A stretch of 64,000 bases of DNA from a bacterium (GCA_021789915.1 JAJYIV010000001.1:375-64374), one strand, 5' to 3'; shown: positions 2,997-59,300, counted from the stretch's first letter. Notes: generated by a model not told the origin, from the sequence alone. Made by a program: numbers and translations.

Positions 2997-3542
2997 ATGC
3001 CAAAGCAAACAGCCAACCAGGGACGCCGCTGGTACGCCATCCACACGTATTCCGGCTACGAGGACAACGTGGCGGAGAACCTGCGCCAGCGCATCGAGAC
3101 GATGGACATGGAGGACAAGATCTTCAACGTGCTCGTCCCGAAGGAAAAGAAGGTCCGCATCAAGAACGGCAAGCGGCGCACGATCGAGGAAAAGATCTTC
3201 CCGGGCTACGTGCTGGTGGAGATGATCGTCACGGACGATTCGTGGTATGTGGTGCGCAACACGCCGAACGTCACCGGCTTCATCGGCACGGGCACGACGC
3301 CGACGCCGGTGTCGCAGGAGGAGATGGACGCCCTGCTGAAGCGCATGCGCGTGGAGGAGCCGGAAACCCAGATCGACATCGAGAAAGGAACCGTGGTCAC
3401 CATCCAGGACGGCCCGTTCAAGAACTTCGAAGGCAAGGTGTCCGACGTGGACCGCGAGCGCGGAAAGGTCAAGGTGCTCGTCAACATGTTCGGCCGCGAG
3501 ACGCCGGTGGAACTCGACTTCCTGCAGGTGAAGAAAACGTAG
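2997..3542 (+). CDS. nusG: transcription termination/antitermination factor NusG
   Basis: 181 aa. NGN domain (RWYAIHTYSGYE) and KOW motif (VVTIQDGPFKNFEGKV). Confidence 0.9.
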   Translation: MPKQTANQGRRWYAIHTYSGYEDNVAENLRQRIETMDMEDKIFNVLVPKEKKVRIKNGKRRTIEEKIFPGYVLVEMIVTDDSWYVVRNTPNVTGFIGTGTTPTPVSQEEMDALLKRMRVEEPETQIDIEKGTVVTIQDGPFKNFEGKVSDVDRERGKVKVLVNMFGRETPVELDFLQVKKT

Positions 3543-3544
3543 GG

Positions 3545-3706
3545 ACCTCTGAAAAAATGATGGATTTTCGTTGTCAGCCAAAGGCTGATCAGCCTCTGGC
3601 TGAAATGGGCTGCCGAGCCCCGCGAACCCTACTGAAACGTAGGGAGAGCGGGGTCGGCGGGCGCCCATGAGACGAAAAGACGCCATTTTGCAGAGGTCCC
3701 CTCTAA
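3545..3706. repeat. R5 element, copy A (about 160 bp, terminal inverted repeats GACCTCTGAAAAA..TTTTGCAGAGGTC)
   Basis: The terminal ~35 bp on each side match the reverse complement of 5343-5480 (GACCTCTGAAAAA-GATGGATTTTCGTTG .. GAGACGAAAAG-CGCC-TTTTGC-GAGGTC). Confidence 0.6.
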
Positions 3707-5343: not shown

Positions 5344-5480
5344 GCGAAGAGACCTCCGCAAAACGGCGCCTTTTCGTCTCGCGGGGCCCCGCCGCCTCCT
5401 CAACGTACGTTTTCAGTACGTTTCGGAGGTCGGCTTCCCCGCTCAACGAAAATCCATCCGTTTTTCAGAGGTCTCTCAAG
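5343..5480. repeat. R5 element, copy B (inverted relative to copy A)
   Basis: Reverse complement aligns with 3545-3706 at both termini. With copy A it brackets rplK-hyp-rplA. Confidence 0.6.
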
Positions 5481-11669: not shown

Positions 11670-12388
11670 TCCCGTCCGTCGCCGATCTCCTGCGCGCCGC
11701 CTGGCGGCTGTATCGGTCCACGCTGGCCCTGCTGTCCGGCTACCTGGCCTGGCTTCTCCTGCCGATCATCGCGCTCGTCCTACTCTCCTTCGCCCCGGCG
11801 GGAGTCGCCGCCGACGCGGCGAGCCTTCTCATCCAATTGGGCGGCGCCGTGCTGTCGATTTGGATTTCGCTCATCGTCATCCGCATCCTTTCCGCCTCGG
11901 CAACCGGCCGGCACGAGGCGCTGCCGGCCGTCATCCGGTCGTCGCGCGAGCGCTTCGGGCCGTTTTTGACGGTCAGCGTGCTGCAAGGAATTGTCGTCCT
12001 GGGCGGCTTCATCCTGCTCATCGTCCCCGGTTTGATCTTCCTCGTGTGGTACGCATTCGCTTCGCTGGAGGCGGCGCTCTCCGGTCGACACGGGCTTGCG
12101 GCCCTCGCGGCAAGCCGGAACCTCGCGCGCGACCGGTTTTGGCCGGTGATGTGGCGCCTGGCGGCCGGCCCCGTCGTGCTCACCGCGTGGTACGCCATCC
12201 TTATGGGGATCATCTTCATTCCGCTCCTCGTCGCCACGGGCACCACGATCGCGGCGGTGACCGGCGACCACCCGCCCATTTGGTTCCTCGCCTTCGACGC
12301 GCTCGGTCAGACGTTCTTCCTCACGCCGCTCTTGCTCGCCTATTCGGTCCTGCTCTACCATTCGCTGGCTGGTGAACGTGAGACGTAG
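11666..12388 (+). CDS. hypothetical polytopic membrane protein (paralog 2)
   Basis: ATGA overlap with the upstream gene. AAGGAG RBS. N-terminus LLRAAWRLYRSTL resembles paralog 1. Confidence 0.6.
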   Translation: MIPSVADLLRAAWRLYRSTLALLSGYLAWLLLPIIALVLLSFAPAGVAADAASLLIQLGGAVLSIWISLIVIRILSASATGRHEALPAVIRSSRERFGPFLTVSVLQGIVVLGGFILLIVPGLIFLVWYAFASLEAALSGRHGLAALAASRNLARDRFWPVMWRLAAGPVVLTAWYAILMGIIFIPLLVATGTTIAAVTGDHPPIWFLAFDALGQTFFLTPLLLAYSVLLYHSLAGERET

Positions 12389-12555
12389 AAAACGTAGAAA
12401 GCGCAGAATCGCTCGTCATAGTCGGAGCCAAACTCGCTCGTAGAAACGACGCGGATGAGACGCTTCTACGATTTCTACGTTCTACGAGCGAGCCGAAGGC
12501 GAGCGATTCTACGTTCTACGAGCCTGGCGCAGCCGGGCGATTCTACGTCTTCAAC
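12389..12555 (+). repeat. R1 element copy 1 (CGTAGAA/TTCTACG-rich, internally inverted)
   Basis: Shares the core TCGCTCGTCA..ACTCGCTCGTAGAAACGACGCGG..GAGACGCTTCTACGA..GAGCGAGCCGAAGGCGAGCGATTCTACG with four other copies. Confidence 0.8.
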
Positions 12556-12569
12556 GCTTCGCGTCCTCT

Positions 12570-14099
12570 ATGTCCCTCGAACCCGTCATCGGGCTGGAAA
12601 TCCATCTCCAGCTCAAAACGAAGTCCAAGATGTTCTGCGGCTGCGCCGCGCACGAGCAGGGTGCGGCGCCCAACGCGAACGTGTGTTCGATTTGCCTGGG
12701 CCATCCCGGGACGCTGCCGGTTCCGAACGCCGAAGCCGTGCGCTTCGGCGTCATGCTCGGATTGGCGCTGAACGCCGAGATTGCCAAACGGTCGAAGTTC
12801 GACCGCAAGAATTATTTCTATCCGGACCTCCCGAAGGCGTACCAGATTTCGCAATACGACCTGCCGATCGCGCAGCATGGATTCCTGGAGTTCGACACGC
12901 CCGCCGGCGTGCGGCGCATCTCCATCGTCCGCGCGCATTTGGAAGAGGACGCGGCGAAGAACACGCACAGCGGCGACGGCAGCACGCTGGTGGATTTCAA
13001 TCGCGCCGGCACGCCGCTCGTGGAAACCGTCACGGGGCCGGATTTCCGCTCGCCGCAGGAAGCCAAGCTCTTTCTGCAAGAGCTGCGGCTCATCGCGCGC
13101 TACCTCGGCGTGTCCGACGCCGACATGGAAAAAGGCCATCTGCGCTGCGACGCCAATATCTCGCTGCGCCAGCGCGACGAGGCCGGGAACGTCGTCGGCA
13201 AGGAGTTCAACCCGAAGACGGAAATCAAGAACCTCAATTCGTTCCGCCACGTGGAGCGCGCGCTGGCATACGAAATCCAGCGGCAGACCAAGCTGTGGCA
13301 GGCCGGTTCGCCGCCCGCCGTCACGACGACGCGCGGCTGGAACGACGCCAAGCAAGTGACCGTCGAACAGCGCGTGAAGGAGAGCGAGGCGGACTACCGA
13401 TACTTCCCCGAGCCGGACATCCCGATGCTCGAGCTTGCCGCGCTCGCGGACGACGCGCGGCATCATCTGCCGGAACTCCCCGCCGCCCGCCGCGCACGCT
13501 TCGTCGAGGAGTATCGCCTGAAGCCAGAGGACGCGCGCCAGCTGTGCGACGATCCGGCGCTGAGCGATTTCACGGAACGCGTCTTCTCCGAGCTGCAAGG
13601 CTGGCTGAATGCGCTGCCGGAACTCGACGGCGCCCAGGACGAACAATGGGAGACCGAGCGCAAAAAGCTCGGCCGGCTCGTGTCGACGTGGACGCTCACC
13701 AAACTGCTCGGCGTGCTCGCCGAGCGTGCGGCGGACATCCGCGTCGCCAAGCTCACGCCGGAGCACTTCGCGGAGCTCATCACCCTAATCGCCACGAAGA
13801 AGCTCAACGCCACGTCGGCGCTCACGGTGCTGAACGCCATGCTCGACGACGGCGCCGATCCGTCGCACGTCATGGAAGACAAGCAGCTCGGGATGATGGA
13901 GGACGTGGACGCGCTCGCGGACGCGATCGACCGCGTGATCGCGCAGAATCCGGCGGAAGCCGCGCGCTACCGCGCCGGCGAGAAGCAGCTGCTCGCCTTC
14001 TTCGTCGGCCAGGTGATGCGGGCGACGGAAGGCACGGCGGACGCGAAGGAAACGCGCAATCTGCTCGCCGTGAAGCTGGACGACATCGGCGCGGAATAA
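12570..14099 (+). CDS. gatB: Asp/Glu-tRNA amidotransferase subunit B
   Basis: 509 aa. N-terminus MSLEPVIGLEIHLQL and C-terminal GatB/YqeY domain. Confidence 0.95.
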   Translation: MSLEPVIGLEIHLQLKTKSKMFCGCAAHEQGAAPNANVCSICLGHPGTLPVPNAEAVRFGVMLGLALNAEIAKRSKFDRKNYFYPDLPKAYQISQYDLPIAQHGFLEFDTPAGVRRISIVRAHLEEDAAKNTHSGDGSTLVDFNRAGTPLVETVTGPDFRSPQEAKLFLQELRLIARYLGVSDADMEKGHLRCDANISLRQRDEAGNVVGKEFNPKTEIKNLNSFRHVERALAYEIQRQTKLWQAGSPPAVTTTRGWNDAKQVTVEQRVKESEADYRYFPEPDIPMLELAALADDARHHLPELPAARRARFVEEYRLKPEDARQLCDDPALSDFTERVFSELQGWLNALPELDGAQDEQWETERKKLGRLVSTWTLTKLLGVLAERAADIRVAKLTPEHFAELITLIATKKLNATSALTVLNAMLDDGADPSHVMEDKQLGMMEDVDALADAIDRVIAQNPAEAARYRAGEKQLLAFFVGQVMRATEGTADAKETRNLLAVKLDDIGAE

Positions 14100-14396: not shown

Positions 14397-15510
14397 TCAA
14401 TGACTGGTCTGTGGATGAAGAAAAATGTCGACGAGCGTTTCGGCTTCGCTCGGCGCTTTCACCCAGTGAATGCGTGCGTCGCGCTTGAACCACGTCAGCT
14501 GGCGCTTGGCGTATGCGCGCGTGTCGCGCTTGATGTCTTCGATCGCCGCGGCGAGATTCGCTTTGCCGTTCAGGAAAAAAGCGATCTGACGATAGCCGAT
14601 GCCCGTCATGGCGACGGGCAATGCGCCGAGCGTCGGAACCCCCTCAGACTCCCCCTTGGCAGGGGGAGATGACGCAGGCATTAATCCCCGCACTTCGTTC
14701 ACCAGGCCCTTGGCGATCATCTCGTCCACGCGGTCGTCGATGCGGCGGTTCAGTTCGTCGCGCTCGACGTCGAGACCGATCTTGAGCACGTCGTATTTCA
14801 GCTCGCCCTTCACCTGCATCGCGGAGAACGGCTTGCCCGTGACGCGGCAGACTTCCAGCGCGCGCACGAGGCGGCGCTTGTTGTGGCGGTCGATCTGCTC
14901 GGCGCCAAGCGGATCCAAGCGCTTGTATTCGGCGAAGAGATCGTCGAGCGAGCGCGGCTCCAGCTCGGCACGGATCGCCGGATCGGGCGGGACTTCCGGA
15001 ATGGACAGGTTGTCGACCAACGCATCGACCCACAAGCCGGTGCCGCCGACGACGATGGGAAGGTGGCCGCGCTTCACGATTTCCGCGATGCGCGCCTCGG
15101 CATACGCCTTGAATTGCGAGACGTTGAAATCCTCGTCCGGGTCGGCCACGTCGATGCCCCAGTGCGGCACGCCGTCGACCATATACGGCTTTGGGCGGAA
15201 GAGGTCGTGAATGGAGAGACGGCCTGCTCTTGCCTTGCCTTTGTCATCCTGAGCTCCGCCCGCACGCAGACGGGGCGAAGGATCTGACGGATTCTTCGCT
15301 TCGCTCAGAATGACAATGGGGACGGCCCTGTCGCGGATCGGCTTCGCCGTGCCGATGTCCATGCCGCGATAGATCTGGCGCGAATCCGCGGAGATGATTT
15401 CAGCTCCGTTTCCGCCAAAGGCGGATCCGCCTCCGGCGGAGAACCGTTTTGCCAACGCAATGCCGAGCGCGGTTTTCCCGCTCGCCGTCGGCCCGACGAT
15501 CACGATGAGT

Positions 15511-15527
<17 letters not shown>
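14397..15527 (-). CDS. miaA: tRNA dimethylallyltransferase with in-frame repeat-element insertions
   Basis: P-loop GPTASGKT, and SADS.QIYRGMDIGTAKP. Carries the in-frame R2 insertion (PIVILSEAKNPSDPSPRLRAGGAQDDKGKA) and a small G/C palindrome insertion (SSPPAKGESEG). Confidence 0.9.
14649..14668. repeat. R3-like short G/C-run palindrome inside miaA (CTCCCCCTTGGCAGGGGGAG)
   Basis: Same architecture as the R3 copies in thrS, GT4 and the subtilase. Encodes SPPAKGE in the miaA frame. Confidence 0.5.
15242..15315. repeat. R2 palindromic element inserted in frame in miaA
   Basis: TGTCATCCTGAGCTCC..CGAAGGATCTGACGGATTCTTCG..CTCAGAATGACA. Length is a multiple of 3 and the reading frame is maintained. 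Confidence 0.75.
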
Positions 15528-17022
<1,495 letters not shown>

Positions 17023-21053: not shown

Positions 21054-22895
21054 TTATTCCGGCCGCTTGGCCGCCTCGACCGCGCGCGCAATGAAGTCCG
21101 GCTGCGGGATCACGAGATCTTCTTCCTGCCCGAAGACGTTGACCTTGAAGTCCATCCCTTCGGCTTCCTTCTGGCCGATCACGACCGTCCACGGCACCTT
21201 CATCATCGCCGCGTCGCGGATCTTCTTGCCGACCTTTTCCGGGCTGTCGTCCAGCGCCACGCGCAGGCCCGCCGCCGCGAGCTTCTCCTTCAGGTCGTTC
21301 GCGAAGGGAATGAAATCATCCGAGACGGTCGCGAGACGGATCTGCTCCGGCGCGAGCCACAGCGGGAACGCGCCCGCGAGATGCTCGATCAGCACCGCGG
21401 CAAAGCGTTCGATCGAGCCCATGATCGCGCAATGGATCATCACGATGCGCTCGGATTCTCCTTTTTCGTTGATGCACGAAAGGTCGAAACGCTCCGGCAG
21501 GTTCAGGTCCAGCTGGATCGTCGCGACCTGGTGCTCGCGGCCGAGCGCGTCCATCGCCATGAAATCGAGCTTCGGCCCGTACATCGCCGCCTCGCCCTGG
21601 GCGACGAAGAAATCGGCCTGGCGCGCCCGGGCGATCTTCTCGAGCGCGCGTTCGGCCTCGGCCCAGATTTCCGGCGTGCCGAGGTACTTCTCCGCGCGCG
21701 CCGGATCGTGGAACGAAAGGCGCACGCGGAGCGTGAAGCCGAACGCGCGGTAAAAGCGGTCGATGATCGACCAGATGTTCGCGAATTCCTGCTCGACCTG
21801 GCGGTGCCGGCAGAAGATGTGCGAATCGTCCTGCGTGATCGAGAGGACGCGCGTGAGGCCGCCGAGCTCGCCGGACTGCTCGTCGCGGTAGACCATCGTC
21901 GTCTCGCTGTAGCGCTTCGGCAGCTCGCGGTAGCTGTGCGGCTTGCGCGCGTAGATCTGCGTGTGGTGCGGGCAGTTCATCGGCTTGAGCGCGTACTCGC
22001 GGCCCTCGCGCGCCGCGATGTGGAAGAGCTCGTCGGCGAATTTCGCCCAGTGGCCGGACGTTTCGTAAAGGCTGCGCTTCGTGATGTGCGGAATGGTGAC
22101 GCCCTCGTAGCCGAACGCGGCGCGCAGGTCCTGCACGAAACGGTCGAGCTCGCGGCGCACGATCGTACCGCGCGGCGTCCACAGCGGCAGGCCGCCGCCG
22201 ACCAATTCCGAGAACGTGAACAGGTCGAGTTCCTTGCCGAGCTTGCGGTGGTCGCGCTTCTTCGCTTCCTCGAGCATGGCGAGATATTCGTCGAGCGCCG
22301 CCTGCGTCGCGAAGCAATAGCCGTAGACGCGCTGCAGCTGCGGATTCTTCTCGTTGCCGCGCCAGTATGCGCCGGCGAGCTTGGCGAGCGTGAACGCGCC
22401 GATCTCGCCCGCGTTCGCGACGTGCGGCCCGCGGCACAAGTCGACGAACGGGCCGGTGTAATACACCGACGCCGTTTCGGCTCCCACCCCCCCGCCAGCC
22501 GCCGTGGAACCAGCCGGCAGCCCCCCCTCGGGCAGGGGGGGAATCCCCACATCCTGCGCCTCCTCGGGACGGATGGCCGTGGTCCCCTTCTCCTTCAGCG
22601 CCTTGAGCAGCTCGACCTTGAACGGCTGGTCGCGCTTCTCGAAGAAGACGATCGCGTCGTCGATCGGCATTTCCTCGCGCCGGAACGCGTCGCCGCGCTT
22701 GATGATCTCGCGCATCTTCGCTTCGATCTTCGGAAAATCCTCCTCCGTGATCGGCGCGGGCGTGAGGATGTCGTAATAAAATCCGTCCTCGACGACCGGC
22801 CCGACGCCGAACTTGGCGCCCGGGTAGAGCTCGCTCACCGCGGCGGCGAGCACGTGCGCGGCGGAGTGCCGCATGGCATGGAGTTTCTCATCCAT
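21054..22895 (-). CDS. thrS: threonine--tRNA ligase (no N-terminal TGS domain) with in-frame R3 insertion
   Basis: Start at [17 protein letters not shown] (tRNA_SAD/editing domain). Class II catalytic core and anticodon-binding domain present. Insertion [21 protein letters not shown]. Confidence 0.9.
22485..22548. repeat. R3 G/C-run palindromic element inserted in frame in thrS
   Basis: CCCACCCCCCCGCC..GCCGGCAGCCCCCCCTCGGGCAGGGGGGG. The reverse complement matches the GT4 copy at 50921-50982. Confidence 0.7.
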
Positions 22896-32448: not shown

Positions 32449-32642
32449 TGAAGCGAGCCGAAGGCGAGCGATTCTACGGAAAACGTAGAACGTAGAATCG
32501 CTCGTCACGGTTGGGGCCGAACTCGCTCGTAGAAACGACGCGGACGAGACGCTTCTACGAGCGAGCCGAAGGCGAGCGGTTCTACGTCTTCTACGTTCTA
32601 CGAGCCCGCCGCAGCCGGGCGATTCCACGTCTTCTACGTCCG
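32449..32642 (+). repeat. R1 element copy 2
   Basis: Same core as the other R1 copies. Its terminal TTCTACG motif provides the TAG stop codon of pheT. Confidence 0.8.
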
Positions 32643-35072
32643 CATCATAGCATGGAATCGCGACGCAAGCACGTCGCGCAGCTTTCGCATCTCCGTCTCG
32701 ACGTCATCCGAAGACAGCGTGCGGTCGGCGGCACGGAAGACGAGATGCAGGGCGAGCGACTTCTGCCCCGCAGGCACGCCTTCGCCCTCGTACACGTCGA
32801 ACAGCGCGACCTCGTGCAGCAGCGGCGACGCCTCCCGCAGCGCCTGTTCGACGCGGGCGTATTCGATCTTGCGGTCCACGACGAACGCAAGATCGCGCTT
32901 GCTCTCCGGGAACGCCGGGATGGGCCGGTACGCCGTCGACGAGGACGCGTGGCGCACCAGACGGTCGAACGACGCGTCGACCAGGAACGCCGGCTGCTCG
33001 AGCCCGAACGCCGCCGCCGTGGCGCGGGACACCTGCCCGATCATGCCGACATGCTCGTGCTCGCCGATCCACACGGCCGCCGAGCGCATGCGGTGCCAGC
33101 GCGGATCGTCCGTGCCCGAGGCCAGGCGTTCCATCCGCAGCGTGCGGATGCCGAGCGCCGCGGCGAGGCGCTCCAGGGCGCCCTTCGCGCGGCGGAATCC
33201 AACGTCCCCGTCGACGCCGGCGAAGGCCATCGCGAGGCGCAGCGTCTGCGCCGGCAATTCGTCCTTCGACGGCTCATACGCGGGCGCCAGCTCGAACAAA
33301 TCCAGGCGCGGCTGACGGCGCTGGTTGGCCTCGACGACCGTGAGCAGCGACGGGACGAGCGACGGGCGCATGAATTCCTGGTCCGCCGACAGCGGGTTGT
33401 CGATCTTCACGGCCAGATCCGTCGACAGGCCGTAGCGTTCCAATTGCCTGGCCGAGACGAAACTGGAGTTATAGCTCTCCGTCAAGCCCGCGCCGGCCAG
33501 GATCTCCTTCGTCCGGCGCTCCCAGCCGATGAGCGGATCCGCCGGCGCGGCGGCGGCCGTGCTGCACGGCAGCGTGGACGGAATATGGGCGTAGCCGTAC
33601 AGACGGGCGATCTCCTCGACGAAGTCGCGCGGACCTTCGATGTCGTGGTCGCGCCAATACGGCACGGTGCAGCGATAGACGCGGCCTCTCCCTTTTTCCA
33701 AGGGGGAGTCGGATGGGGTTGCCGGCGCCAGCGCGAACCCGAGGCGCTTCAGGAGCGCGACCTGTTCCTTGGCGGGGATTTCCACGCCTATGAGCGCCGA
33801 GGCCTTCTGCGGATCAAACGGGAAGGCGGGCGTCTGATACGGCTTGGTTTCGATCGAGGAAACCTGCGAGGCCACGCGCGCGCCGGCCACGGTGCGCAGC
33901 AATTCGACCGCGCGGGCCAGCGCCGGGCCGGCCGCTTGCGCGGACAGGCCCTTTTCAAACAGCGACGACGCGTCGGTTTGCAGGTTGAGCGCGCGGGCCG
34001 TTCGGCGGATGCTCACCGGATCGAAGACGGCCGACTCGAGCACGACGCGCGTCGTCGCGGCGGTCGTGCCGCTCGCCCGGCCGCCGATCACGCCGGCGAT
34101 CGCCGCGGGCTTGTCGCGGTCGGCGATCACGAGCATGTCCGGCGTGAGCGCGTGGGTTTTCCCGTCCAGAGCCTCGATCGATTCCCCCGCCCGCGCGCGG
34201 CGCACGAAGATGCCGGCTCCGGCGAGCGCACCCGCGTCGAAGGCGTGCAGCGGATGGCCGAGCTCGAGCAGGACGTAGTTCGTAACGTCCACGACGTTGT
34301 TGATCGGCGCATGGCCCGCCAAGAGCAGCGCGCGCTGCAGCCACCACGGCGACGGGCCGACCTTGACGTGATCCAGCACCACGGCCTCGTACTTGGGCGC
34401 GAGCTCCGGCGCGTCCACCGTGACCGGCAGCGTCGGCACGTCGGCCGGGACGGCCGGCAGGCGCTTGGGCTTCCACGTGAACTTCCCGCCCACGGCGGCG
34501 AACCCTTCGCGCGCCTGGCCCACGATGCTCATGCCATCCGGGCGGTTGCCCGTGACTTCGATGTCCAGGATCACGTCGTTCAACCCCAAGGCGTCCGCGA
34601 GCGGCGTGCCCGCCTCGGCGCGCGTGAGCTTCGTCAGATCCCAAATCGGGCGCTCGCCTTCGAGCGCCAGGTCGAAGCCCAGCTCTTCGGGCGCGCAAAT
34701 CATGCCATGGCTCTTCTGTCCGCGGATTTCCGTCTCCTGCAGCACGACCGGCTCCCCTTCCCCGTGCCAGCGCACGGACGATCCCGGCAGGGCGACGGCG
34801 ACGCGCTGATTTTTTTTGAGATTGGTGCCGCCGCACACGATCTGCACCGCGGCCGTGCCGATGTCCACCCGGCAGACGCGCAGCTTGTCGGCGTTGGGAT
34901 GCTTCTCGACGGAATCAATCACGCCGACGACGATGTGGTCGAAGCGCGCGGCGACGTCTTCCATGCGCTCGACGCCGTTGCCGGCGGCCGTCGTGCGGCG
35001 CGCGAACTCCTCGACGGTCAGATCCGTCTTCAGGTATTCGCGGATCCAGTTGTAGGAGGCGAGGAGGTTCAT
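32634..35072 (-). CDS. pheT: phenylalanine--tRNA ligase beta subunit
   Basis: About 812 aa. N-terminal tRNA-binding domain, B3/B4, B5 (FDP..), and FDX-ACB C-terminus. ATGA overlap with the four-helix-bundle gene. Confidence 0.9.
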   Translation of the reverse strand: MNLLASYNWIREYLKTDLTVEEFARRTTAAGNGVERMEDVAARFDHIVVGVIDSVEKHPNADKLRVCRVDIGTAAVQIVCGGTNLKKNQRVAVALPGSSVRWHGEGEPVVLQETEIRGQKSHGMICAPEELGFDLALEGERPIWDLTKLTRAEAGTPLADALGLNDVILDIEVTGNRPDGMSIVGQAREGFAAVGGKFTWKPKRLPAVPADVPTLPVTVDAPELAPKYEAVVLDHVKVGPSPWWLQRALLLAGHAPINNVVDVTNYVLLELGHPLHAFDAGALAGAGIFVRRARAGESIEALDGKTHALTPDMLVIADRDKPAAIAGVIGGRASGTTAATTRVVLESAVFDPVSIRRTARALNLQTDASSLFEKGLSAQAAGPALARAVELLRTVAGARVASQVSSIETKPYQTPAFPFDPQKASALIGVEIPAKEQVALLKRLGFALAPATPSDSPLEKGRGRVYRCTVPYWRDHDIEGPRDFVEEIARLYGYAHIPSTLPCSTAAAAPADPLIGWERRTKEILAGAGLTESYNSSFVSARQLERYGLSTDLAVKIDNPLSADQEFMRPSLVPSLLTVVEANQRRQPRLDLFELAPAYEPSKDELPAQTLRLAMAFAGVDGDVGFRRAKGALERLAAALGIRTLRMERLASGTDDPRWHRMRSAAVWIGEHEHVGMIGQVSRATAAAFGLEQPAFLVDASFDRLVRHASSSTAYRPIPAFPESKRDLAFVVDRKIEYARVEQALREASPLLHEVALFDVYEGEGVPAGQKSLALHLVFRAADRTLSSDDVETEMRKLRDVLASRFHAMMRT

Positions 35073-47630: not shown

Positions 47631-47900
47631 GAGAATCGCTTGTAGAACGTAGAAGACGTAGAATCGCTCGGCCTTCGGCCTCGTTCGTAGAACGTAGAAG
47701 ACGTAGAATCGCTCGGCTGCGCCGGGCTCGTAGAGCGTAGAAATCGTAGGAATGTCTCGTCCGCGTCGTTTCTACGTTTTCTACGTCTTCTACGCTTTCT
47801 ACGTTGAAACGCCGTCCGAACCGCGTCGTTTCTCCGAGCGAGTCTGGCCCCAACCGTGACGAGCGATTCTCCGTTCTACGCTTTCTACGTTTCTACATCT
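47631..47900 (-). repeat. R1 element copy 3 (inverted orientation)
   Basis: Starts immediately after the LemA stop codon. Reverse complement aligns with copy 4. Supplies the TAG stop of gene 47893-48930. Confidence 0.8.
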
Positions 47901-50223: not shown

Positions 50224-50470
50224 AGCGGGGAGCGTAGAAAACGTAGAACGTAGGATCGCTCGTCACGGTTGGGGCCAGACTCGCTCGTAGAAACGACGCG
50301 GTTCGGACGGCGTTTCAACGTAGAAAGCGTAGAAGACGTAGAAAACGTAGAAACGACGCGGACGAGACATTCCTACGATTTCTACGCTCTACGAGCCCGG
50401 CGCAGCCGGGCGATTCTACGTCTTGTACGTTCTACGAACGAGGCCGAAGGCCGAGCGATTCTACGCCTTC
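50224..50470 (+). repeat. R1 element copy 4
   Basis: Begins at the nucleotide after the GT4 start codon and contains the stop codon of the next GT4. Core identical to copy 5. Confidence 0.8.
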
Positions 50471-51655
50471 GCGATACACCTCCTCCAACCGATCCATCAG
50501 CGGATCCCAGGCGTAATCGCGCAGGACGCGCGCCCGCGCCGCCAAGCCGAGACGCTCGCGCAACGCCGCGTCGGGAAGCAGCGTCCGCAGGGCGTCCGCC
50601 AGCGCGGCGGCGTCGCCCGCCGGCACGCACCAACCGGTTTCCCCGTGCAGCACGACGCTGCGCACACCCGGGAGGTCGGACACGACGCTCGGCACGCCCG
50701 AGGCGGCGGCCTCGAGCGCGACCAGGCCGAAGGCTTCCCCGCTGGAAACGGACGGCAGCACGTGGACCTGCGAGGCGCGGTAGAGGTCCGGCAATGCCTC
50801 GTCCGCCACGGCGCCGAGGAATCGCACGCGTTCCGCCATGCCGAGACGCCGCGCCTCGGCCTCGTAGGCCGCGCGCAAATCCCCGTCGCCGACGATGAGG
50901 GCGTTCCACGGCGCCACGCGCCCCCCCCTGCCCGAGGGGGGGCTGCCGGCCGGCCGCAAGGCGGCAGGCGGGGGGGTGGGAGCGGCCGCGATGCGGGCCA
51001 GCGCTTCCAGCAGCACCGGCACGCCCTTGAACGCGTGCGCCTCGTCCAACCCGCCGACGAACAGGACCGTCGGCCCGCTCCCCAGCGAGAGCCGCGCGCG
51101 CGTCTCCGACGCGTCGCCCGGATGGAATCGCTCGCCGTCCACGCCGAACGGCAGCTCGACGAGGCGGTCGGCCAGCTTCGGCAGCGCGGCGAGCGCCGAG
51201 GAGCGGGCGTAATCGAGCGAGCTCACGAGCACGCGGTCCGCCCGCGCGATGAGCCACGGGAACAGCGCGCGCCGGTGCGCCTCGAACGCCAGCCCCTTCA
51301 GCCCGTTGGCATGCGTATCCATGTGGTACGTCACGACGAGCGCCTGATCGCCCCGCAGCGCCTTGCGCACGATGGTCGGCTCCGCGCCGCCGAAGAACGG
51401 ATAATGCAGGTGCACCAAATCAAAACCGGACAGGCGGCGGAACAGCGACGGCACGGCAGCGGCGTTGCCGACCGAGAGCGGCGACGGCACGCGGTGGACG
51501 AAATCCGGATCTTCCGGAATCTCGCGGTCGAAGCGCGGCGTGAACACGTGGACGTCCTCGCCGCGCGCGCGCAAACGCTCCGTGTACGCGTGCGCCACGT
51601 TTCCCATGCCGCCGTGGTACGGCGGGTAGGTTGAGACGACCTGGGCGATGTTCAT
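50432..51655 (-). CDS. glycosyltransferase family 4 with in-frame R3 insertion; C-terminus encoded by R1
   Basis: MNIAQVVSTYPPYHGGMGN. Insertion [26 protein letters not shown]-terminal ..ESLGLRPRS* lies inside the R1 repeat. Confidence 0.85.
   Translation of the reverse strand: MNIAQVVSTYPPYHGGMGNVAHAYTERLRARGEDVHVFTPRFDREIPEDPDFVHRVPSPLSVGNAAAVPSLFRRLSGFDLVHLHYPFFGGAEPTIVRKALRGDQALVVTYHMDTHANGLKGLAFEAHRRALFPWLIARADRVLVSSLDYARSSALAALPKLADRLVELPFGVDGERFHPGDASETRARLSLGSGPTVLFVGGLDEAHAFKGVPVLLEALARIAAAPTPPPAALRPAGSPPSGRGGRVAPWNALIVGDGDLRAAYEAEARRLGMAERVRFLGAVADEALPDLYRASQVHVLPSVSSGEAFGLVALEAAASGVPSVVSDLPGVRSVVLHGETGWCVPAGDAAALADALRTLLPDAALRERLGLAARARVLRDYAWDPLMDRLEEVYREGVESLGLRPRS
50921..50982. 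repeat. R3 G/C-run palindromic element inserted in frame in GT4
   Basis: CCCCCCCCTGCCCGAGGGGGGGCTGCCGGC..GCGGCAGGCGGGGGGGTGGG is the reverse complement of the thrS copy. Confidence 0.7.
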
Positions 51656-51861
51656 AACGGACGTAGAAAACGTAGAATCGCTCGTCGCGGTTGGGGCCAG
51701 ACTCGCTCGTAGAACGTAGAAAGCGTAGAAGACGTAGAAAACGCAGAAACGACGCGGGTGAGACGCTTCGACGCTTCTACGCCTTCTACGAGCGAGCCGA
51801 AGGCGAGCGATTCTACGCCTTCTACGCTCTACGAGCGAGGCCGAAGGCCGAGCGATTCTAC
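51656..51861 (+). repeat. R1 element copy 5
   Basis: Begins right after the GT4 start codon. Terminal TTCTAC provides the TAG stop of the DUF2304 gene. Confidence 0.8.
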
Positions 51862-52196
51862 TCCTGTTTCCTCTCTAAATCCTTCAGCGCCAGCGCGCGC
51901 ACGAGCTTGGTGATCTCGCGCTGCGTTTCCTCGATCTTCACGAACAGGCGGAAGGACAGATAGAACAACAGCGCGAGGGCGGCGTAGATGACGAGATCGG
52001 AGCCGCGGCCGACGCCCACGGCATTGGCCAGCCACGTCGTCGACTGCGGCAGCAGCGCCACGGCGGCCACGGCCATCCACAGGATGATGAATCCGAGCAG
52101 CCCGGCGGCGCGCAGCCTGCCGGCGCGAAACTGCGCCGCGGCGCGCGCGACGGCGAAAACGGCGAAGGCGAGGATGAGAAGCTGGATGGGAAGCAT
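51858..52196 (-). CDS. DUF2304-like small membrane protein (GT2 partner)
   Basis: Start MLPIQLLILAFAVFAV. Three TM helices. Sits downstream of a GT2 gene, as is usual for DUF2304. Confidence 0.6.
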   Translation of the reverse strand: MLPIQLLILAFAVFAVARAAAQFRAGRLRAAGLLGFIILWMAVAAVALLPQSTTWLANAVGVGRGSDLVIYAALALLFYLSFRLFVKIEETQREITKLVRALALKDLERKQE

Positions 52197-54189: not shown

Positions 54190-56064
54190 TCATCCTCCTA
54201 CCAGCACCTGCCGGCTGAAGACGTCGTCGCTTTGCGCCGACAGCGGCAGGCCTTCGGGCAGCGTCTCCCAGGAGCCGGCGAGCATGCGCACGAACAAGCG
54301 TTCGAAATGGTTCGCCGCGAGATCCGTCACGCGCCGCCGCGTTCCCCGGTCGACGTACCAGGCGTCGGTCGATCCCGGCGCTTCCATGAGCGCCCCGGAC
54401 GGCCAGGATGAGGAAAGCGCGGCCTGGTCGATATCCGGCCCCTGGCGGAACTTGGTGAAATAGGTCGGCTCGACGTCGATGACGCGCGACGCCCAATCGG
54501 GCCCTCCCAGCGCGCGCGCCGCCGCTTCGTCCTTGATCCAGCGCAGCGTATAACCGTCGGGCGAGACGAAATACGTCCTCGGGTCGCTGGCGATCTTTAC
54601 CCAGTACGTGCCGGGCCGTACGAGGACGGGAGCGCCCAACGGAATCGCCGCCATGTCGGAAGGCGGAATCGTCCTCACGCTGGAAAAATCAGGGAACCAG
54701 CTGCGGAAGATGACGGCGTTCGGGAACGGATGGCGCTTGCCGTCCAGGCCGACGATATAGACCGTCGGCAAGGCGGCAAGGCGGATCAAGGAATCGACGG
54801 GAGCCGACGCAGGCAAAGCGGCATTGGCGGCCGCGCGGTCGTACGCGGACGGCGAGGATTCCCCTCCTGCCAAGCCTGTCCTGAGCGAAGTCGAAGGAGG
54901 GGGGCTGCCTGCTGGCCGCCCGTTGACAGGCGGGGGGGTCTGCATCGCGACCGGCACGGCGGCGCCCGTGTGGTCGAAGGAGCCCGCGATCTGCAGCGCC
55001 CGCCCGACATTCAGCCGGCCCGCGCCGACGGCGCCGACGGGTGCGCCGCCCGTCGACGTGATCGGATCCGCCGACAGCTGCAGGATGGTGCGGATCTGGT
55101 CCGGCGTGAGCGTCGGGTGGACGGAAAGCAGCAGGGCGGCCGCGCCGGAAACCAGCGGCGCGGCGAAGGACGTGCCGGACCAGCCGTCGTCGTACGGCTT
55201 GGTGAAATCGCCGTATTGCGGCCGGTAAAGCTCCGTGCTGAAGACGTCCGTCCCCGGCGCCGCGATGTCCACGCATCCGCCGCCGTAGTTGGAGAAGCTC
55301 GCGCGCGCGTCATTCGCATCCGTCGCGGCGACGCCGATGACCGGCCGGACGCCGTTGGCGTTGAAACAGGCCGGGTAATCCGGCGCCTGCGACAGGTCCG
55401 TTCCCCCGTCGGCATTCCCGACGGCCGCGACGACCACCACTCCTTGCCGATAGGCCCGCTCGATTTCCGTTTCGAGGTCCGGATCCAGGCTGGTGCCGCT
55501 GAAACTCAGGTTGATGACGCGGGCGCCGTGGTCGACGGCGTAGCGGATGGCCGGCACCACGTTGGCGCTGTCCCCGCGCCCGAAGGCGTCCACGATGCGC
55601 AGCGGCATGATTTGGACGCCGAAAGCCAGTCCGGCGATGCCCTGGGCGTTGTCGGCCGTCGCGGCGATTTCGCCGGCGATGATGGTTCCGTGGTCGGCGC
55701 CGTCCGGCAGCCAGCCCTGCGACAGGTCCGGCTCCGGGTCATTGGTGTTTTCCACGAAGTCCCAGCCGTGCACGTCGTCCACGTAGCCGTCATGGTCGTC
55801 GTCGATGCCGTTGCCGGGAATCTCCCCGGGATTCGTCCAGATATGATCCTTGAGGTCGGGATGCGAGAGGTCCACGCCGGAATCCAGGATGGCAACGATG
55901 ACGCTCGAGGAGCCGCGCGCATAGTCCCAGGCCGCGGGAGCGCCGACGCGCGCCAAGTAATCCTGCTTGGCGAAGTCAGGATCGTTCGGGACATAGGCCA
56001 GGGCCGTGAGCGGGATGAACCACGCGGCGAGCAGGGCGGCGATCAGGCGTTTCATGCGACGCAT
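54190..56064 (-). CDS. secreted S8 subtilisin-like serine protease with C-terminal extension and in-frame R2/R3 composite insertion
   Basis: Signal peptide MKRLIAALLAAWFIPLTALA. Catalytic triad motifs (AILDSGVD, HGT, GTSFAAP). Confidence 0.85.
   Translation of the reverse strand: MRRMKRLIAALLAAWFIPLTALAYVPNDPDFAKQDYLARVGAPAAWDYARGSSSVIVAILDSGVDLSHPDLKDHIWTNPGEIPGNGIDDDHDGYVDDVHGWDFVENTNDPEPDLSQGWLPDGADHGTIIAGEIAATADNAQGIAGLAFGVQIMPLRIVDAFGRGDSANVVPAIRYAVDHGARVINLSFSGTSLDPDLETEIERAYRQGVVVVAAVGNADGGTDLSQAPDYPACFNANGVRPVIGVAATDANDARASFSNYGGGCVDIAAPGTDVFSTELYRPQYGDFTKPYDDGWSGTSFAAPLVSGAAALLLSVHPTLTPDQIRTILQLSADPITSTGGAPVGAVGAGRLNVGRALQIAGSFDHTGAAVPVAMQTPPPVNGRPAGSPPPSTSLRTGLAGGESSPSAYDRAAANAALPASAPVDSLIRLAALPTVYIVGLDGKRHPFPNAVIFRSWFPDFSSVRTIPPSDMAAIPLGAPVLVRPGTYWVKIASDPRTYFVSPDGYTLRWIKDEAAARALGGPDWASRVIDVEPTYFTKFRQGPDIDQAALSSSWPSGALMEAPGSTDAWYVDRGTRRRVTDLAANHFERLFVRMLAGSWETLPEGLPLSAQSDDVFSRQVLVGG
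54861..54950. repeat. composite R2-fragment/R3 element inserted in frame in the subtilase
   Basis: CTGTCCTGAGCGAAGTCGAAGG (R2-like) joined to GAGGGGGGCTGCC..GGCGGGGGGGTCTGC (R3). Confidence 0.6.
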
Positions 56065-56331: not shown

Positions 56332-59300
56332 CTACGATTTCGGATTCAAGGCCGTGCGCGTGGCCGCGTCCAGCGCGCCCGTGACGGGCAGCCGCCAGCC
56401 GGCCTGCAATGCCTTCAGCGCGGCGCGGGTCGCCCCGCCGAAGTAGCCGTAGGCGATGCCCTTCGGGATCGTGAGCAGATGCTTGGCGACCAGGAATTGC
56501 TGCAGGGCCGTCACGTCGTCGCCCTTCGAGCCGACCGCAAGGTTCTTGAGATACGCGTGGACGGCTTTGGCGACGGGCGAGGCCGGAGGAGCCGCGGGAG
56601 CGGCGGCAGCTGCCTTCGGATTCAAGGCCGTGCGCGTGGCCGCGTCCAGCGCGCCCGTGACGGGCAGCCGCCAGCCGGCCTGCAATGCCTTCAATGCGTC
56701 GCGCGTCAGCGCGCCGAAGCGGCCGAAGGCCACGCCCTTGGGCATCTTGAGCAGGCCCTTGGCGACCAGGAATTGCTGCAGGGCCGTCACGTCATCGCCG
56801 GTGGAACCGACCGCCAGGTTCTTCAGATACGCGTGAAGCGCCTTGGCGACGGGCTGCGCCGGCGTGGCCGGGGTGGCCGGGGTCGCAGGCGTGGCCGGCG
56901 TCGTCGATGTGGCGGGCGTGGCCGGGGTTGCAGGGGTTGCCGGCGTCGCGGGCGTTGTCGCCGCTGCTGCAGCGACGATGGAGAAGACGCCCGAGATGCC
57001 CGTCGCCTGCGTCACGCCGCTCGCATCGCGGCACTCGATTTTCACCCGGGCCGACGACGTCGCCGCGCTCGGCACCGTCCACGCATAGGATCCCGTATTC
57101 GCCACGCCGGCGGACGCGATGAGCGTGTAGGCGCTGCCGTCCGCCGAGTAGGAGAGCAGGACATCGTGGATGTCCGAGCCGGAGGACGTCCAGACGATGG
57201 ATTGGGCGGCGCCTTCCGTGAGCGAAGCGCCCGCGGCCGGCATGCTTACCGTGCAGGAATCCGTCGCCGGCGCGACATACCCGCCGCCGCCTCCGCTCGC
57301 GCCGCCGGAAGACGGCGTCCGCACGGACGCGGAAGCCGATGCGGCGGATTCGGCGCTGCCGTTCATCGAGGTGATCTCGTAGTAGTACGTCGTGCCGCCC
57401 ACGACCGTCGTGTCCGCGTAGGTCGTCGTCGCGCCGGAAGAAACAGTGGGCTCGCTGCCGACACGGCTGAAGGTCCCCGTGGGGGACGTGCTGCGGTAGA
57501 TGTCGTAGCCGGAGGCGCCGGTGATGGCTCCCCACGAGAGGTTCACCTGCGTGGAGCCGGTCGTCGTCGGCGTGGCAAGGGTCGGCGCCGAAAGAGACCC
57601 CGTGTCGCCGCTGGTCGGCGCATACGTCGACAAGTGGTCGGTGACGGCCGCGATGGTGATGGAGCCGACATTCCCCAGGTTGGCATCCACCGTCTTGCCG
57701 GAGCTGCCGTCCAGGATGCCGCCGCTCGCGTCCTTGTAGATCACGGCCGACGGGAGCGTCGTCCAGTCGCCGCTGGCGTCGTCCTGATACGACATCTTCA
57801 AGGCATCGGCCGCCGTCTTCGTATTGATGCCGGAAGCGGAAAGATCCGACGACGTGAACGTCTTCTCGACGGTGCCGGTGCCGCTCGGCATGGCGTCGAG
57901 CGAATTGTTGTCCGAATCCTTGGCGGTGATGTCCACGGCGGAAGGCACGGTGGAGCTGCCGATCGCCGACTTCAGCACGGTGGCCGTGCCCGTGGAGAGG
58001 ACGCCGCTCGTCTCGTCGCTCTTCACGCTGCCGCTCGACGTCGAGGAGCCGTAGGCGCCGCCGTTGATGACGAGGCTCGCGTCCGCCGAAGCGTCCTTGA
58101 GGACGCCGCCGGAAGCGGGCGCGAACGGCATGGAGGCGGGCGACGTCGCCGAGACGGTCGAGGAGAGGGTGACGGTATTGCCCGTTGCGGAGGGCGCGCT
58201 GCCGGACGTCGTGACCAGGCTGGAAAGCGCCGAGGATTGGTAGCCGTCCGCCGATCCGGAAACCTTCCACGTGCCGTCGGTCACGTGCAGCGTGTAGGCG
58301 CCGGTGGAATCGGTCTGCGCGCTGACGAATCCGCCGCCCAACTTGCTCGCCTGCACGGTGGCGTTCGCGATCGGATTGCCGGAACCGTCAACTGCCGTCC
58401 CCGAAATGGTGTCCGAGGCGATCGGCAGAGTCACACCCAAGGTCGGATTCTCCGCGCTGGTCTTATGCGTCGCGTCGACCGTGACGGACGCGGGAGCGAA
58501 GGCATAGCCCGGCTTGGTGACCGCCATCGTGTACGTCCCGTCTGCCAGATTGGCGGCGTAATTGCCGGAGGCGTCGGTCTGCACGTCCGTGCGGACGCCG
58601 TCGGACGCCGTGAAGGCCACCTGTGCATTCGACACGGCGGCCGGCGTTCCCGCATTGTCATCCACCGTTCCGCTGACGCTCTCAACGCTTGCAGGCGTCG
58701 TCAGCGTCAAGGAGATAGGGCTGCTGGCGACGGTGAGGAGGCCCGCCGCATACCCGCTGCCGCTGAAATCAGACGCGGCGACGGTCATGCCGGGAATGTC
58801 CGCCTGCACGAGATAGGTGCCGGCGGGCAGCGACGTCGTGAAGGTGTTGTTGCCGGACGTCACGTCCTTCAGCCGGAGGAAGGACTGCTGCGCGGCGCCG
58901 CTGCCGCTCGAGACGAAGCTCACCAGGCCGCTCGGGACCTTCGTGATGCCGGTGAGGGCGATCGTGAGCGTAACCGTCACGGCCCCGCTGCCGGAGACCG
59001 CGAAGTTCTTGCCGGACTGATCCGCCGACGCGTCGAAGGCGGCGAGCGGCGGGAGCTGGCCGACGCCCGGCAGGGTGGCCGTCAGAGTGTAGCAGTTCGT
59101 TCCGGAGGTCGTGCAGGCCGGCGCCTTGAAGGAATAGTTGCCGCTGCTGTCCGTTGCCGCCTGGTTGAACGTGCCGTTCGTGCCGACCAGCGAAACGAAC
59201 GCGCCCGGGACGGCGGAGCCGTTCGTCACGGATCCGGAGATCGTCACGAACGTTCCGGTGCCCGTCTGGGACGGAGCGAAATTGACGCCCGTCTGGCCCG

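What the first reader, a model, noticed from the sequence alone, without database searches (positions are those of the whole stretch)
22485..22548. G/C-run palindromic element (R3) inserted in frame in thrS, a GT4 glycosyltransferase, the subtilase and miaA
CCCACCCCCCCGCC..GCCGGCAGCCCCCCCTCGGGCAGGGGGGG in thrS (22485-22548) is the reverse complement of CCCCCCCCTGCCCGAGGGGGGGCTGCCGGC..GGCGGGGGGGTGGG in the GT4 gene (50921-50982). A related copy sits in the subtilase (about 54895-54950) and a shorter one in miaA (14649-14668). Depending on orientation they translate to [21 protein letters not shown] (thrS) or [23 protein letters not shown] (GT4). This is a second, distinct family of ORF-invading palindromes, here within an aminoacyl-tRNA synthetase between its editing and catalytic domains.
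Basis: seen in the sequence. Interest (0 to 1): 0.72.

Follow-up and report, generated by a model that had tools for sequence, protein, structure and literature searches.

The report
Short GC-rich repeat inserted inside genes
A 40-90 base, almost pure G/C repeat has been copied in frame into several essential genes of one uncultured Uhrbacteria (CPR) bacterium. It is apparently read through as floppy Pro/Gly loops, much like the "protein-coding palindromes" known from Rickettsia.

Summary
The window is from a Candidatus Uhrbacteria MAG (GCA_027328745.1, contig DAHWTR010000002.1). It holds three strong copies of one repeat: thrS 22479-22545(-), a GT4 glycosyltransferase 50921-50984(+) and a subtilase 54857-54943(+). 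A profile of the three gives E = 1e-13 to 1e-19, and nothing else in the window scores below E = 0.07. A fourth copy lies 7 kb outside the window, in gyrB.

The copies fall into two subfamilies. A is 63 nt (thrS and GT4, 89% identical, opposite orientations). B is 84-87 nt (subtilase and gyrB, 86% identical) and carries the same piece of a second repeat nested in the first hairpin loop.

Orthologue alignments show window-specific in-frame insertions of 20 aa in ThrRS (absent from 25 orthologues) and 23 aa in GT4 (absent from 15). AlphaFold models place both in low-confidence loops.

The miaA "copy" is weak. It is the degenerate counterpart of a clear 39-nt short form at the same miaA site in a second Uhrbacteria lineage.

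Pattern scans of three public collections found no true relative. The 71 kb examined holds no transposase, and I could not establish target duplications.

Best reading: selfish, non-autonomous repeat DNA tolerated because it is stop-free and lands in permissive loops. This is a new variant of the RPE / in-frame MITE phenomenon.

The parts
22479..22545 (-). R3 copy, subfamily A, in thrS. Read on the minus (coding) strand it is GATT-C7-TGCCCGA-G7-CTGCCGGCTGGTTCCACGGCGGCTGGC-G7-TGGGAGC. The net insertion against orthologues is 60 nt (22488-22547), encoding [20 protein letters not shown].
   Evidence: 66.2 bits, E = 1.7e-19; a 20-column gap in all 25 orthologues; codon alignment.
50921..50984 (+). 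R3 copy, subfamily A, in the GT4 glycosyltransferase, antisense to the gene. Sequence: C8-TGCCCGA-G7-CTGCCGGCCGGCCGCAAGGCGGCAGGC-G7-TGGGAGC. The net insertion is 69 nt (about 50915-50983), encoding [23 protein letters not shown].
   Evidence: 60.8 bits, E = 8e-18; a 23-column gap in all 15 orthologues..
54857..54943 (+). R3 copy, subfamily B (composite), in the subtilase, antisense to the gene. Sequence: GATT-CCCCTCC-TGCCAAG-[nested 24 nt]-G6-CTGCCTGCTGGCCGCCCGTTGACAGGC-G7-T. It encodes part of a Pro-rich linker (…QTPPPVNGRPAGSPPPSTSLRTGLAGG…).
   Evidence: 46.2 bits, E = 3e-13; the linker is 17-23 aa longer than in the closest homologues and is hypervariable; 86% identical to the gyrB copy.
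54875..54898 (+). Nested segment CCTGTCCTGAGCGAAGTCGAAGGA inside the first hairpin loop of the subtilase copy. It is a piece of another palindromic repeat family, also present at 16308-16332 in miaB.
   Evidence: 25 nt, 96% identical to 16308-16332.; the same nested piece is in the gyrB copy.
14635..14668 (-). Degenerate short form in miaA. On the minus strand it reads CTCCCCC-TGCCAAG-GGGGAG-TCTGA-GGGGG-TTCC. This is the same site as the 39-nt short form CTCCCTCC-TGCCCGA-G6-ATGA-G7-TGGGAGC in the L010 miaA.
   Evidence: 9.8 bits, E = 0.069; the window and L010 carry 12-13 extra aa here, and L013/L015 lack them.
21054..22874 (-). thrS host gene (606 aa, no TGS domain).
50432..51655 (-). GT4 glycosyltransferase host gene (407 aa).
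54190..56052 (-). Subtilase (Peptidase_S8) host gene. The start is probably the Met at 56052, because the orthologues begin there.
14397..15527 (-). miaA host gene (376 aa).

Best explanation
R3 is a family of short (39-87 nt), non-autonomous, almost pure G+C repeat elements that has been copied to new chromosomal sites within one Uhrbacteria lineage.

Its modules are a C7-8 run, a 7-nt loop (TGCCCGA or TGCCAAG), a G6-7 run (hairpin 1), an optional 27-nt imperfect inner hairpin (CTGCC…GGCAG), and a terminal G7 run followed in most copies by TGG(GAGC). The C-run can pair with either G-run.

The genome is about 90% coding, so most insertions land in genes. The ones we see are the survivors. They add a multiple of three bases at a permissive place (a surface loop, an interdomain linker or an N-terminal tail). 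Because the element has almost no A/T, it contains no stop codon in either orientation. It is therefore read through as a Pro/Gly/Ala-rich disordered peptide with little effect on the host enzyme. In short, it is selfish or neutral DNA of the Rickettsia-palindromic-element type.

Shown: the family relationship, both orientations, in-frame lineage-specific insertions, two subfamilies each with at least two copies, and location in predicted disordered segments.

Inferred: copy-and-paste mobility, mobilisation in trans by an enzyme encoded elsewhere, translation of the insert, and near-neutrality.
For: - Four long copies lie in 71 kb of one contig. thrS and GT4 are 89-90% identical in opposite orientation. 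The subtilase and gyrB copies are 86% identical and share the same nested 24-nt segment, so the composite was itself copied as a unit.
- The insertions are absent from every close orthologue: ThrRS 20 aa (0 of 25) and GT4 23 aa (0 of 15). The subtilase linker is 17-23 aa longer. Almost the whole 38-aa N-terminal extension of GyrB is R3-coded.
- All measured net lengths are multiples of three: 60, 69, 84 and 39 nt. There are no stops in any of the six frames of the A copies.
- Different peptides are encoded according to orientation, which argues against selection for a protein motif.
- AlphaFold2 puts the ThrRS insert in a pLDDT<50 coil (residues 99-130) within an 85.7-pLDDT model. The GT4 insert lies in a coil between a helix and a strand with pLDDT 52-67.
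- A short form occupies the same miaA site in a second lineage and is missing in a third. The family is therefore older than the window genome and is gained or lost as a unit.
- There are no R3 copies in about 125 kb from six related genomes apart from that one.
Against: - Only four long and two short copies could be examined.
- The ends are not defined. The 3' TGGGAGC is shared by three copies, yet in thrS the GGAGCC looks ancestral. The 5' GGATT is shared by two copies and CGCG by two others.
- No convincing target-site duplication was found (thrS GTGGG/GTGGG; GT4 GGCGC/GGAGC).
- No transposase, integrase or HUH/RAYT-type gene is present in the 71 kb.
- Single-strand folding is no more stable than dinucleotide shuffles (z = -0.44 to +0.84), and there is no covariation.
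- Translation of the insert is inferred only from frame preservation.
- No insertion polymorphism was seen; the two assemblies of the thrS region are 99.99% identical.
Confidence: 0.6

Rival explanations
1. The copies spread without a transposase. Recombination or repair would paste a donor copy into a break or stalled fork by ectopic gene conversion, template switching or microhomology-mediated synthesis, and the G/C runs and hairpins would promote stalling and strand invasion.
For: - No transposase in the 71 kb, and no clear TIR or TSD.
- In thrS the right junction coincides with a probable ancestral GGAGCC that matches the element's own 3' TGGGAGC, which looks like microhomology.
- The 5' flank types (GGATT vs CGCG) and the subfamilies (A vs B) occur in all four combinations, as expected if copies exchange segments.
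Against: - No direct evidence for this route.
- It predicts variable junctions and frequent truncated copies. Yet three copies end identically in TGGGAGC, and all begin at the C-run.
- Four gamete-like combinations among four copies can also arise by chance or from target-derived flanks.
Confidence: 0.2
2. R3 is kept because it does something at the nucleic-acid level. Possibilities are a protein-binding or recombination site, or an mRNA hairpin or G-quadruplex that modulates translation or stability of the host transcript.
For: - The short form in the L010 miaA matches the window's A copies exactly at TGCCCGA-G6 and G7-TGGGAGC, although the two genomes differ by about 25% at the protein level.
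- The G-rich strand has the run pattern of a G-quadruplex, and a G4-aware fold uses it.
- A similar three-run architecture sits just after a stop codon in an unrelated betaproteobacterial MAG.
Against: - Copies are in both orientations relative to transcription, so the mRNA carries either strand.
- There are no compensatory changes, and three substitutions break inner-stem pairs.
- Fold energies equal those of shuffles.
- The element is absent from all orthologues of thrS and GT4, and the window's own miaA copy has decayed.
- There is no Rfam match.
Confidence: 0.1
3. The element is not translated. It would be removed from the mRNA or bypassed by the ribosome, like an intervening sequence or a 'byp'/gene-60-type hop.
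For: Strong local hairpins and G/C runs inside essential genes. No proteomic data exist.
Against: - Every copy adds a multiple of three bases and keeps the frame open. Neither would be needed if the segment were removed.
- There are no intron, ribozyme or intein signatures (Pfam; Rfam).
- In gyrB the only available start codon lies upstream of the element.
Confidence: 0.03
4. It is an artefact or chance: poly-G sequencing noise, a mis-assembly, or independent low-complexity expansions.
For: Homopolymer G/C runs are typical of two-colour sequencing artefacts. The two metagenome hits to the pattern were such junk.
Against: - The copies have complex conserved interiors and preserve reading frames in four genes.
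- The pattern never occurs in shuffles.
- The thrS copy is identical in an independent ENA assembly.
- A short form is present in a different sample and genome.
Confidence: 0.02

Closest known systems
Rickettsia palindromic elements (RPE; Ogata et al. 2000, 2002; summarised in PMC2229807 and PMC10969869)
   Same: - Multi-copy palindromic repeats inserted in frame into unrelated, conserved housekeeping genes of a small, gene-dense genome.
- Both add a peptide segment compatible with the host fold.
- No known transposase and an uncertain TSD in both.
- The RPE insert in gmk was shown to be translated with near-neutral effect.
   Different: - RPEs are 105-146 bp, A+T-rich like their hosts, with about 12-bp TIRs and long stem-loops. 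R3 is 39-87 nt, 70-88% G+C, and built on homopolymer C/G runs.
- R3 has a modular short, long and composite series.
- R3 occurs in Patescibacteria.
- Sequence relatedness was not tested and is not expected.
Bacterial MITEs with open reading frames (ERIC/IRU, the 107-bp Correia element, Wolbachia protein-coding palindromic repeats; PMC2229807)
   Same: Small non-autonomous repeats that are sometimes found fused in frame to host ORFs.
   Different: - Those have defined TIRs, TA or other TSDs, and often a cognate IS.
- They are mostly intergenic.
- R3 ends, TSD and partner enzyme are all undefined.
REP/REPIN elements mobilised by RAYT (Y1/HUH) transposases, and IS200/IS605-derived hairpin elements (PMC3733652; own knowledge for IS200/IS605)
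   Same: Short hairpin-based repeats with no classical TIR or TSD. A fixed nucleotide motif next to one end (possibly GGAGC here) would fit hairpin-guided single-strand transposition.
   Different: - REPs carry a GTAG or CGTC head, are extragenic, and sit in genomes with a RAYT gene.
- R3 has neither head (sequences).
- R3 is intragenic.
- No such gene is in the 71 kb.
GC clusters of yeast mitochondrial DNA (own knowledge, not checked here)
   Same: Short G+C-rich palindromic mobile elements that can sit in frame inside a protein gene (var1) and occur in both orientations.
   Different: They occur in an organellar, A+T-rich genome and show a different sequence, with characteristic flanking duplications.

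Membership tests
Rickettsia palindromic elements (RPE) | In-frame insertion into conserved protein-coding genes, compatible with the host fold | tested here: met
Rickettsia palindromic elements (RPE) | Length 105-146 bp with about 12-bp terminal inverted repeats forming a long stem-loop (PMC2229807) | tested here: not met
   R3 is 39-87 nt. The only terminal complementarity is C7TGCC against GGCG7. Fold z-scores are about 0.
Rickettsia palindromic elements (RPE) | Sequence membership in one of the RPE families of Rickettsiales | not testable with these tools
   No RPE consensus library is available. The host is Patescibacteria.
MITE | Small, non-coding-for-transposase, multi-copy | tested here: met
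   Four long copies in 71 kb, with no ORF of their own.
MITE | Terminal inverted repeats | tested here: inconclusive
   The 5' CCCCCCCTGCC and 3' GGCGGGGGGG are complementary at 10 of 11 positions. However, the conserved sequence continues past the 3' run (TGGGAGC).
MITE | Target-site duplication of fixed length | tested here: inconclusive
   Candidates are thrS GTGGG/GTGGG and GT4 GGCGC/GGAGC. They are in different register relative to the element, and the orthologues are too diverged (about 70% aa) to reconstruct the empty sites.
MITE | Cognate autonomous IS with the same ends | tested here: not met
   No transposase domain was found in any gene of the window or the 7-kb left flank.
REP/REPIN-RAYT | GTAG or CGTC tag at one end of a 20-40 nt palindrome, extragenic location, RAYT gene in the genome | tested here: not met
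   No such tag in any copy. All copies are intragenic. No Y1_Tnp hit was found. A genome-wide RAYT search was not possible.
IS200/IS605-type hairpin elements | Subterminal hairpins, no TIR or TSD, insertion next to a fixed 4-5 nt target | tested here: inconclusive
   Hairpins are present. GGAGC abuts the G7-TG end in three copies, and in thrS it looks target-derived. The gyrB and subtilase copies lack it.
Intein / self-splicing intervening sequence | Splicing domain or ribozyme motifs; no need for frame compatibility | tested here: not met
   Inserts are only 13-28 aa. Pfam shows only the host-enzyme domains. Rfam finds only a tRNA.
Intrinsic terminator hairpin | G+C-rich stem followed by a T run, intergenic | tested here: not met
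   No T run follows R3. By contrast, the relatives' C5/G5 hairpins are flanked by A/T runs and are intergenic.

The most novel reading that the evidence does not exclude
R3, together with at least two other palindrome families in the same contig, would be the first RPE-like system outside obligate intracellular Alphaproteobacteria. In this reading R3 is a homopolymer-hairpin mini-element that moves by a mechanism not yet described for MITEs. That mechanism could be hairpin- or microhomology-guided insertion next to GGAGC-like sites without a classical transposase. The element would then act as a regular source of new loops, linkers and tails in essential CPR proteins (ThrRS, GyrB, MiaA, PheT).
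Probability: 0.2. Interest if true: 0.7.

Novelty: new variant of a known kind. Interest (0 to 1): 0.5.

Why it matters
- It extends "selfish DNA inside protein-coding genes" from Rickettsia and Wolbachia to the Candidate Phyla Radiation. This is another lineage with small, gene-dense genomes, which hints that high coding density rather than intracellular life drives the phenomenon.
- Such inserts create lineage-specific loops and tails in universal marker proteins (ThrRS, GyrB). They can mislead alignment, phylogenomics and domain annotation of MAGs.
- They offer sharp strain or lineage markers.
- An element this short, with clear short, long and composite forms and no visible transposase, is a tractable case for asking how minimal repeats move.

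Tried and rejected
1. Genome-contig scan with CCCCCCTGCC-N2-4-GGGGGGCTGCC. It gave six single hits in unrelated phyla, about the number expected by chance. Only L002 (a betaproteobacterial MAG) shares the three-run layout.
2. Metagenome-contig scan with the two conserved blocks. It gave two poly-G junk contigs.
3. Viral-contig scan: 0 hits. Phage BLAST: none. Plasmid BLAST: only partial hits with E >= 0.04.
4. Search of the 5.8-billion protein set with a concatenate of all six-frame R3 peptides, meant to find other host proteins. It was swamped by low-complexity candidates and returned only the GT4 itself.
5. Rfam: only one tRNA at gathering threshold; ARAGORN finds two tRNAs.
6. Single-strand folding and pair counting gave no support for a selected structure. 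G4-aware folding was suggestive only.
7. Reaching the 20 kb of the contig to the right of the window failed. The giant ORF and the T2SSE ORF did not match recorded gene products.
8. Literature search for palindromic in-frame repeats in CPR found nothing relevant in the held library.
9. Rejected ideas: a conserved protein motif (different peptides per orientation), CRISPR or TIGR arrays (copies are dispersed, not arrayed), and a terminator (no T run, intragenic).

Full report
**Source and context.** The window has 65.4% G+C. Its ThrRS and GT4 proteins have their best matches in Candidatus Uhrbacteria / Patescibacteria. The exact ThrRS and NusG sequences are on NCBI contig DAHWTR010000002.1 of GCA_027328745.1 (95,459 nt). 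An independent ENA contig (L007) covers window 11054-32874 at 99.99% identity. About 90% of the window is coding. All annotated products are housekeeping or envelope functions, and none carries a transposase, integrase or HUH domain.

**Observation.** The quoted sequences are present.
- thrS 22480-22541 and GT4 50922-50983 are 62 nt long and 90% complementary. thrS and the subtilase share 41 nt at 78%.
- The two-block pattern GGGGGGCTGCC-N19-GGCGGGGGGGT occurs three times in the window and never in 100 shuffles.
- Eight of the eleven G/C runs of 6 or more lie in these three places.
- A sequence-only profile of the three copies (A7, R1), run without filters, recovers them at 66, 61 and 46 bits. 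Nothing else scores below E = 0.07. The next hit is the miaA hairpin at 9.8 bits.

**Anatomy.** In what I call the canonical orientation, the long form reads: C7-8, TGCCCGA, G7, CTGCCGGC…GGCAGGC (27 nt, an imperfect hairpin), G7, TGGGAGC.
- thrS carries it on its coding strand. GT4 and the subtilase carry the reverse complement on theirs.
- The thrS and GT4 copies (subfamily A) are 89% identical.
- The subtilase copy has the loop TGCCAAG, the variant CTGCCTGC, and a 24-nt segment (CCTGTCCTGAGCGAAGTCGAAGGA) nested in the first loop. This segment belongs to another repeat family also seen in miaB at 16308-16332.
- Fetching 7 kb to the left of the window revealed a fourth copy in the first 38 codons of gyrB (L019 5035-5118, 30 bits, E = 3e-9). 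It has the same nested segment and the same TGCCAAG / CTGCCTGC variants, and is 86% identical to the subtilase copy.
- There are therefore two subfamilies, A (63 nt) and B (84-87 nt), each with two copies. The composite must have been copied after it formed.
- A third, short form of 39 nt (CTCCCTCC-TGCCCGA-G6-ATGA-G7-TGGGAGC) sits in the miaA of a second Uhrbacteria lineage (L010, 54% G+C). The long form equals the short form with ATGA replaced by the 27-nt inner hairpin.

**Host genes and lineage specificity.**
- *ThrRS.* All 25 aligned orthologues (59-72% identity) lack a 20-aa segment, [20 protein letters not shown]. At the DNA level this is 60 nt. phmmer against solved structures splits the protein at exactly this place: query 1-96 aligns to S. 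aureus ThrRS 73-166, and query 133-600 to 167-637. The insert is therefore inside the N2 editing domain, just upstream of the tRNA_SAD motif, and not between the editing and catalytic domains.
- *GT4.* All 15 orthologues lack 23 aa ([23 protein letters not shown], 69 nt) between a helix and the next strand of the C-terminal Rossmann domain.
- *Subtilase.* The element lies in a Pro-rich, hypervariable linker after the S8 domain. The linker is 17 aa longer than in the syntenic orthologue L012 and 23 aa longer than in P0241.
- *GyrB.* Homology to solved GyrB starts at residue 39, and residues 8-35 are R3-coded. No alternative start codon lies between the element and the conserved SYGAQQIQ, so the element is in the coding sequence.
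- *MiaA.* The window and L010 both have 12-13 extra residues at the same position relative to L013/L015. The window's version is degenerate. The three lineages are about equidistant, so one ancient gain with a loss, or two hits at a hotspot, cannot be told apart.

**Frame and structure in the proteins.** Net additions are 60, 69, 84 and 39 nt. The A copies have no stop codon in any of six frames. The composite has stops in one unused frame. The encoded peptides differ with orientation: [13 protein letters not shown]… versus PTPPPAALRPAGSPP… AlphaFold2 models (mean pLDDT 85.7 and 85.2) place the ThrRS insert in a coil with pLDDT below 50 (residues 99-130). The GT4 insert lies in a coil with block means of 52-67, flanked by elements above 95.

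**Distribution.**
- Exact-pattern scans of 185,579 species genomes, the JGI metagenomes and IMG/VR gave no true relative. BLAST against phages and plasmids gave nothing meaningful.
- In about 125 kb from six related genomes (L010, L012, L013, L015-L018), the profile and run searches find only the L010 miaA short form. In those genomes, C5/G5 hairpins are ordinary intergenic terminators.
- R3 has therefore expanded in the window lineage, at about one long copy per 18 kb in the 71 kb seen.

**Nucleic-acid structure.** The C-run can pair with either G-run, and an inner stem is possible. However, single-strand DNA fold energies of the long copies do not differ from dinucleotide shuffles (z = -0.44 to +0.84). 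On the three-copy alignment, 92% of cells pair but no pair shows a compensatory change, and three substitutions break inner-stem pairs. A G-quadruplex-aware fold uses the 3' G-runs. This is only suggestive.

**Ends and mechanism.**
- The heptamer TGGGAGC follows the last G7 in the thrS, GT4 and L010-miaA copies (chance about 1e-4 per site). This argues that it belongs to the element.
- Yet in thrS the codons GGA GCC correspond to the conserved G-A of the orthologues' A-G-A-E. That suggests a preference for GGAGC-like targets, or microhomology at the junction.
- GGATT precedes the C-run in the thrS and subtilase copies, and CGCG plus C8 in the GT4 and gyrB copies. These 5' types cut across the A/B subfamilies.
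- Candidate duplications (GTGGG in thrS; GGCGC/GGAGC in GT4) are in different registers. I therefore cannot define the ends, the TSD or the enzyme.

The best-supported account is a non-autonomous selfish repeat, mobilised in trans or by repair. Its genic copies are the in-frame survivors at permissive sites. I give this 0.6. A transposase-free recombinational route gets 0.2, a selected nucleic-acid function 0.1, removal before or during translation 0.03, and artefact 0.02.

**Comparison with known systems.** The behaviour matches the Rickettsia palindromic elements. Those are 105-146 bp repeats with about 12-bp TIRs, found in frame in 19 protein genes, with the gmk insert shown to be translated and nearly neutral (PMC2229807; PMC10969869). 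In-frame ERIC and Correia copies and the Wolbachia protein-coding repeats are also comparable. R3 differs in size (39-87 nt), composition (70-88% G+C, homopolymer runs), its modular short/long/composite series, and its host phylum. It fails the REP/RAYT criteria (no GTAG or CGTC head, intragenic, no RAYT seen) and shows no intein, intron or terminator features. A search of the held literature found no description of such elements in CPR bacteria. I rate it a new variant of a known kind, of moderate interest.

Noticed in passing
L019:5035-5118 (contig DAHWTR010000002.1, about 6 kb left of window position 1): A fourth long R3 copy (composite type) makes up most of a 38-aa N-terminal extension of gyrB. 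It was found only because the flank of nusG was fetched.
   Followed up: yes
window 12381-12600, 32452-32680, 47636-47890, 50233-50470, 51650-51865: An intergenic repeat family rich in TCTACG/CGTAGAA units. Arms 47652-47889 and 50233-50470 form a 238-nt, 97% inverted repeat bracketing two genes (an unknown 366-aa protein and a second GT4).
   Followed up: no
window 15216-15330 (miaA N-terminal part) and 16240-16340 (miaB): Palindromes of the 'GTCATCCTGAGCGAAG…' type are translated in frame (VILSEAKNP…LRAGGAQDD). MiaA is about 30 aa longer here than in L010. A piece of this family is nested in R3 subfamily B.
   Followed up: partly
window 33689-33728 (pheT, minus strand): An 11-aa window-specific insertion is encoded by another C-run/G-run hairpin, GACTCCCCCTTGGAAAAAGGGAGAG. 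It shares GACTCCCCCTTGG with the plus strand of the miaA hairpin.
   Followed up: partly
L002:165-203 (uncultured betaproteobacterium MAG CAVOUJ010000028.1): An intergenic CCCCCC-TGCCAAG-GGGGGG-CTGCCGCGAAGCGGC-GGGGGG-T lies right after a stop codon. It has the same three-run layout as R3 (12.9 bits, E = 0.015, but it was selected by the search pattern). It may be chance or a wider structural class.
   Followed up: partly
window 3541-3703 and 5346-5476: Two pairs of inverted repeats (54 nt at 80% and 33 nt at 91%) flank the rplK-rplA region.
   Followed up: no
window 56332-63990: A giant ORF of more than 2552 aa probably continues past the window end. It has 9-nt tandem repeats at 56840-56969 and a 276-nt tandem duplication at 56339-56882.
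   Followed up: no
window 21054-22874: This ThrRS, like its Uhrbacteria relatives, starts at the position of S. aureus residue 73, so it lacks the N-terminal TGS domain. The clade already has a loop about 16 aa longer than S. aureus at the site where R3 inserted.
   Followed up: partly
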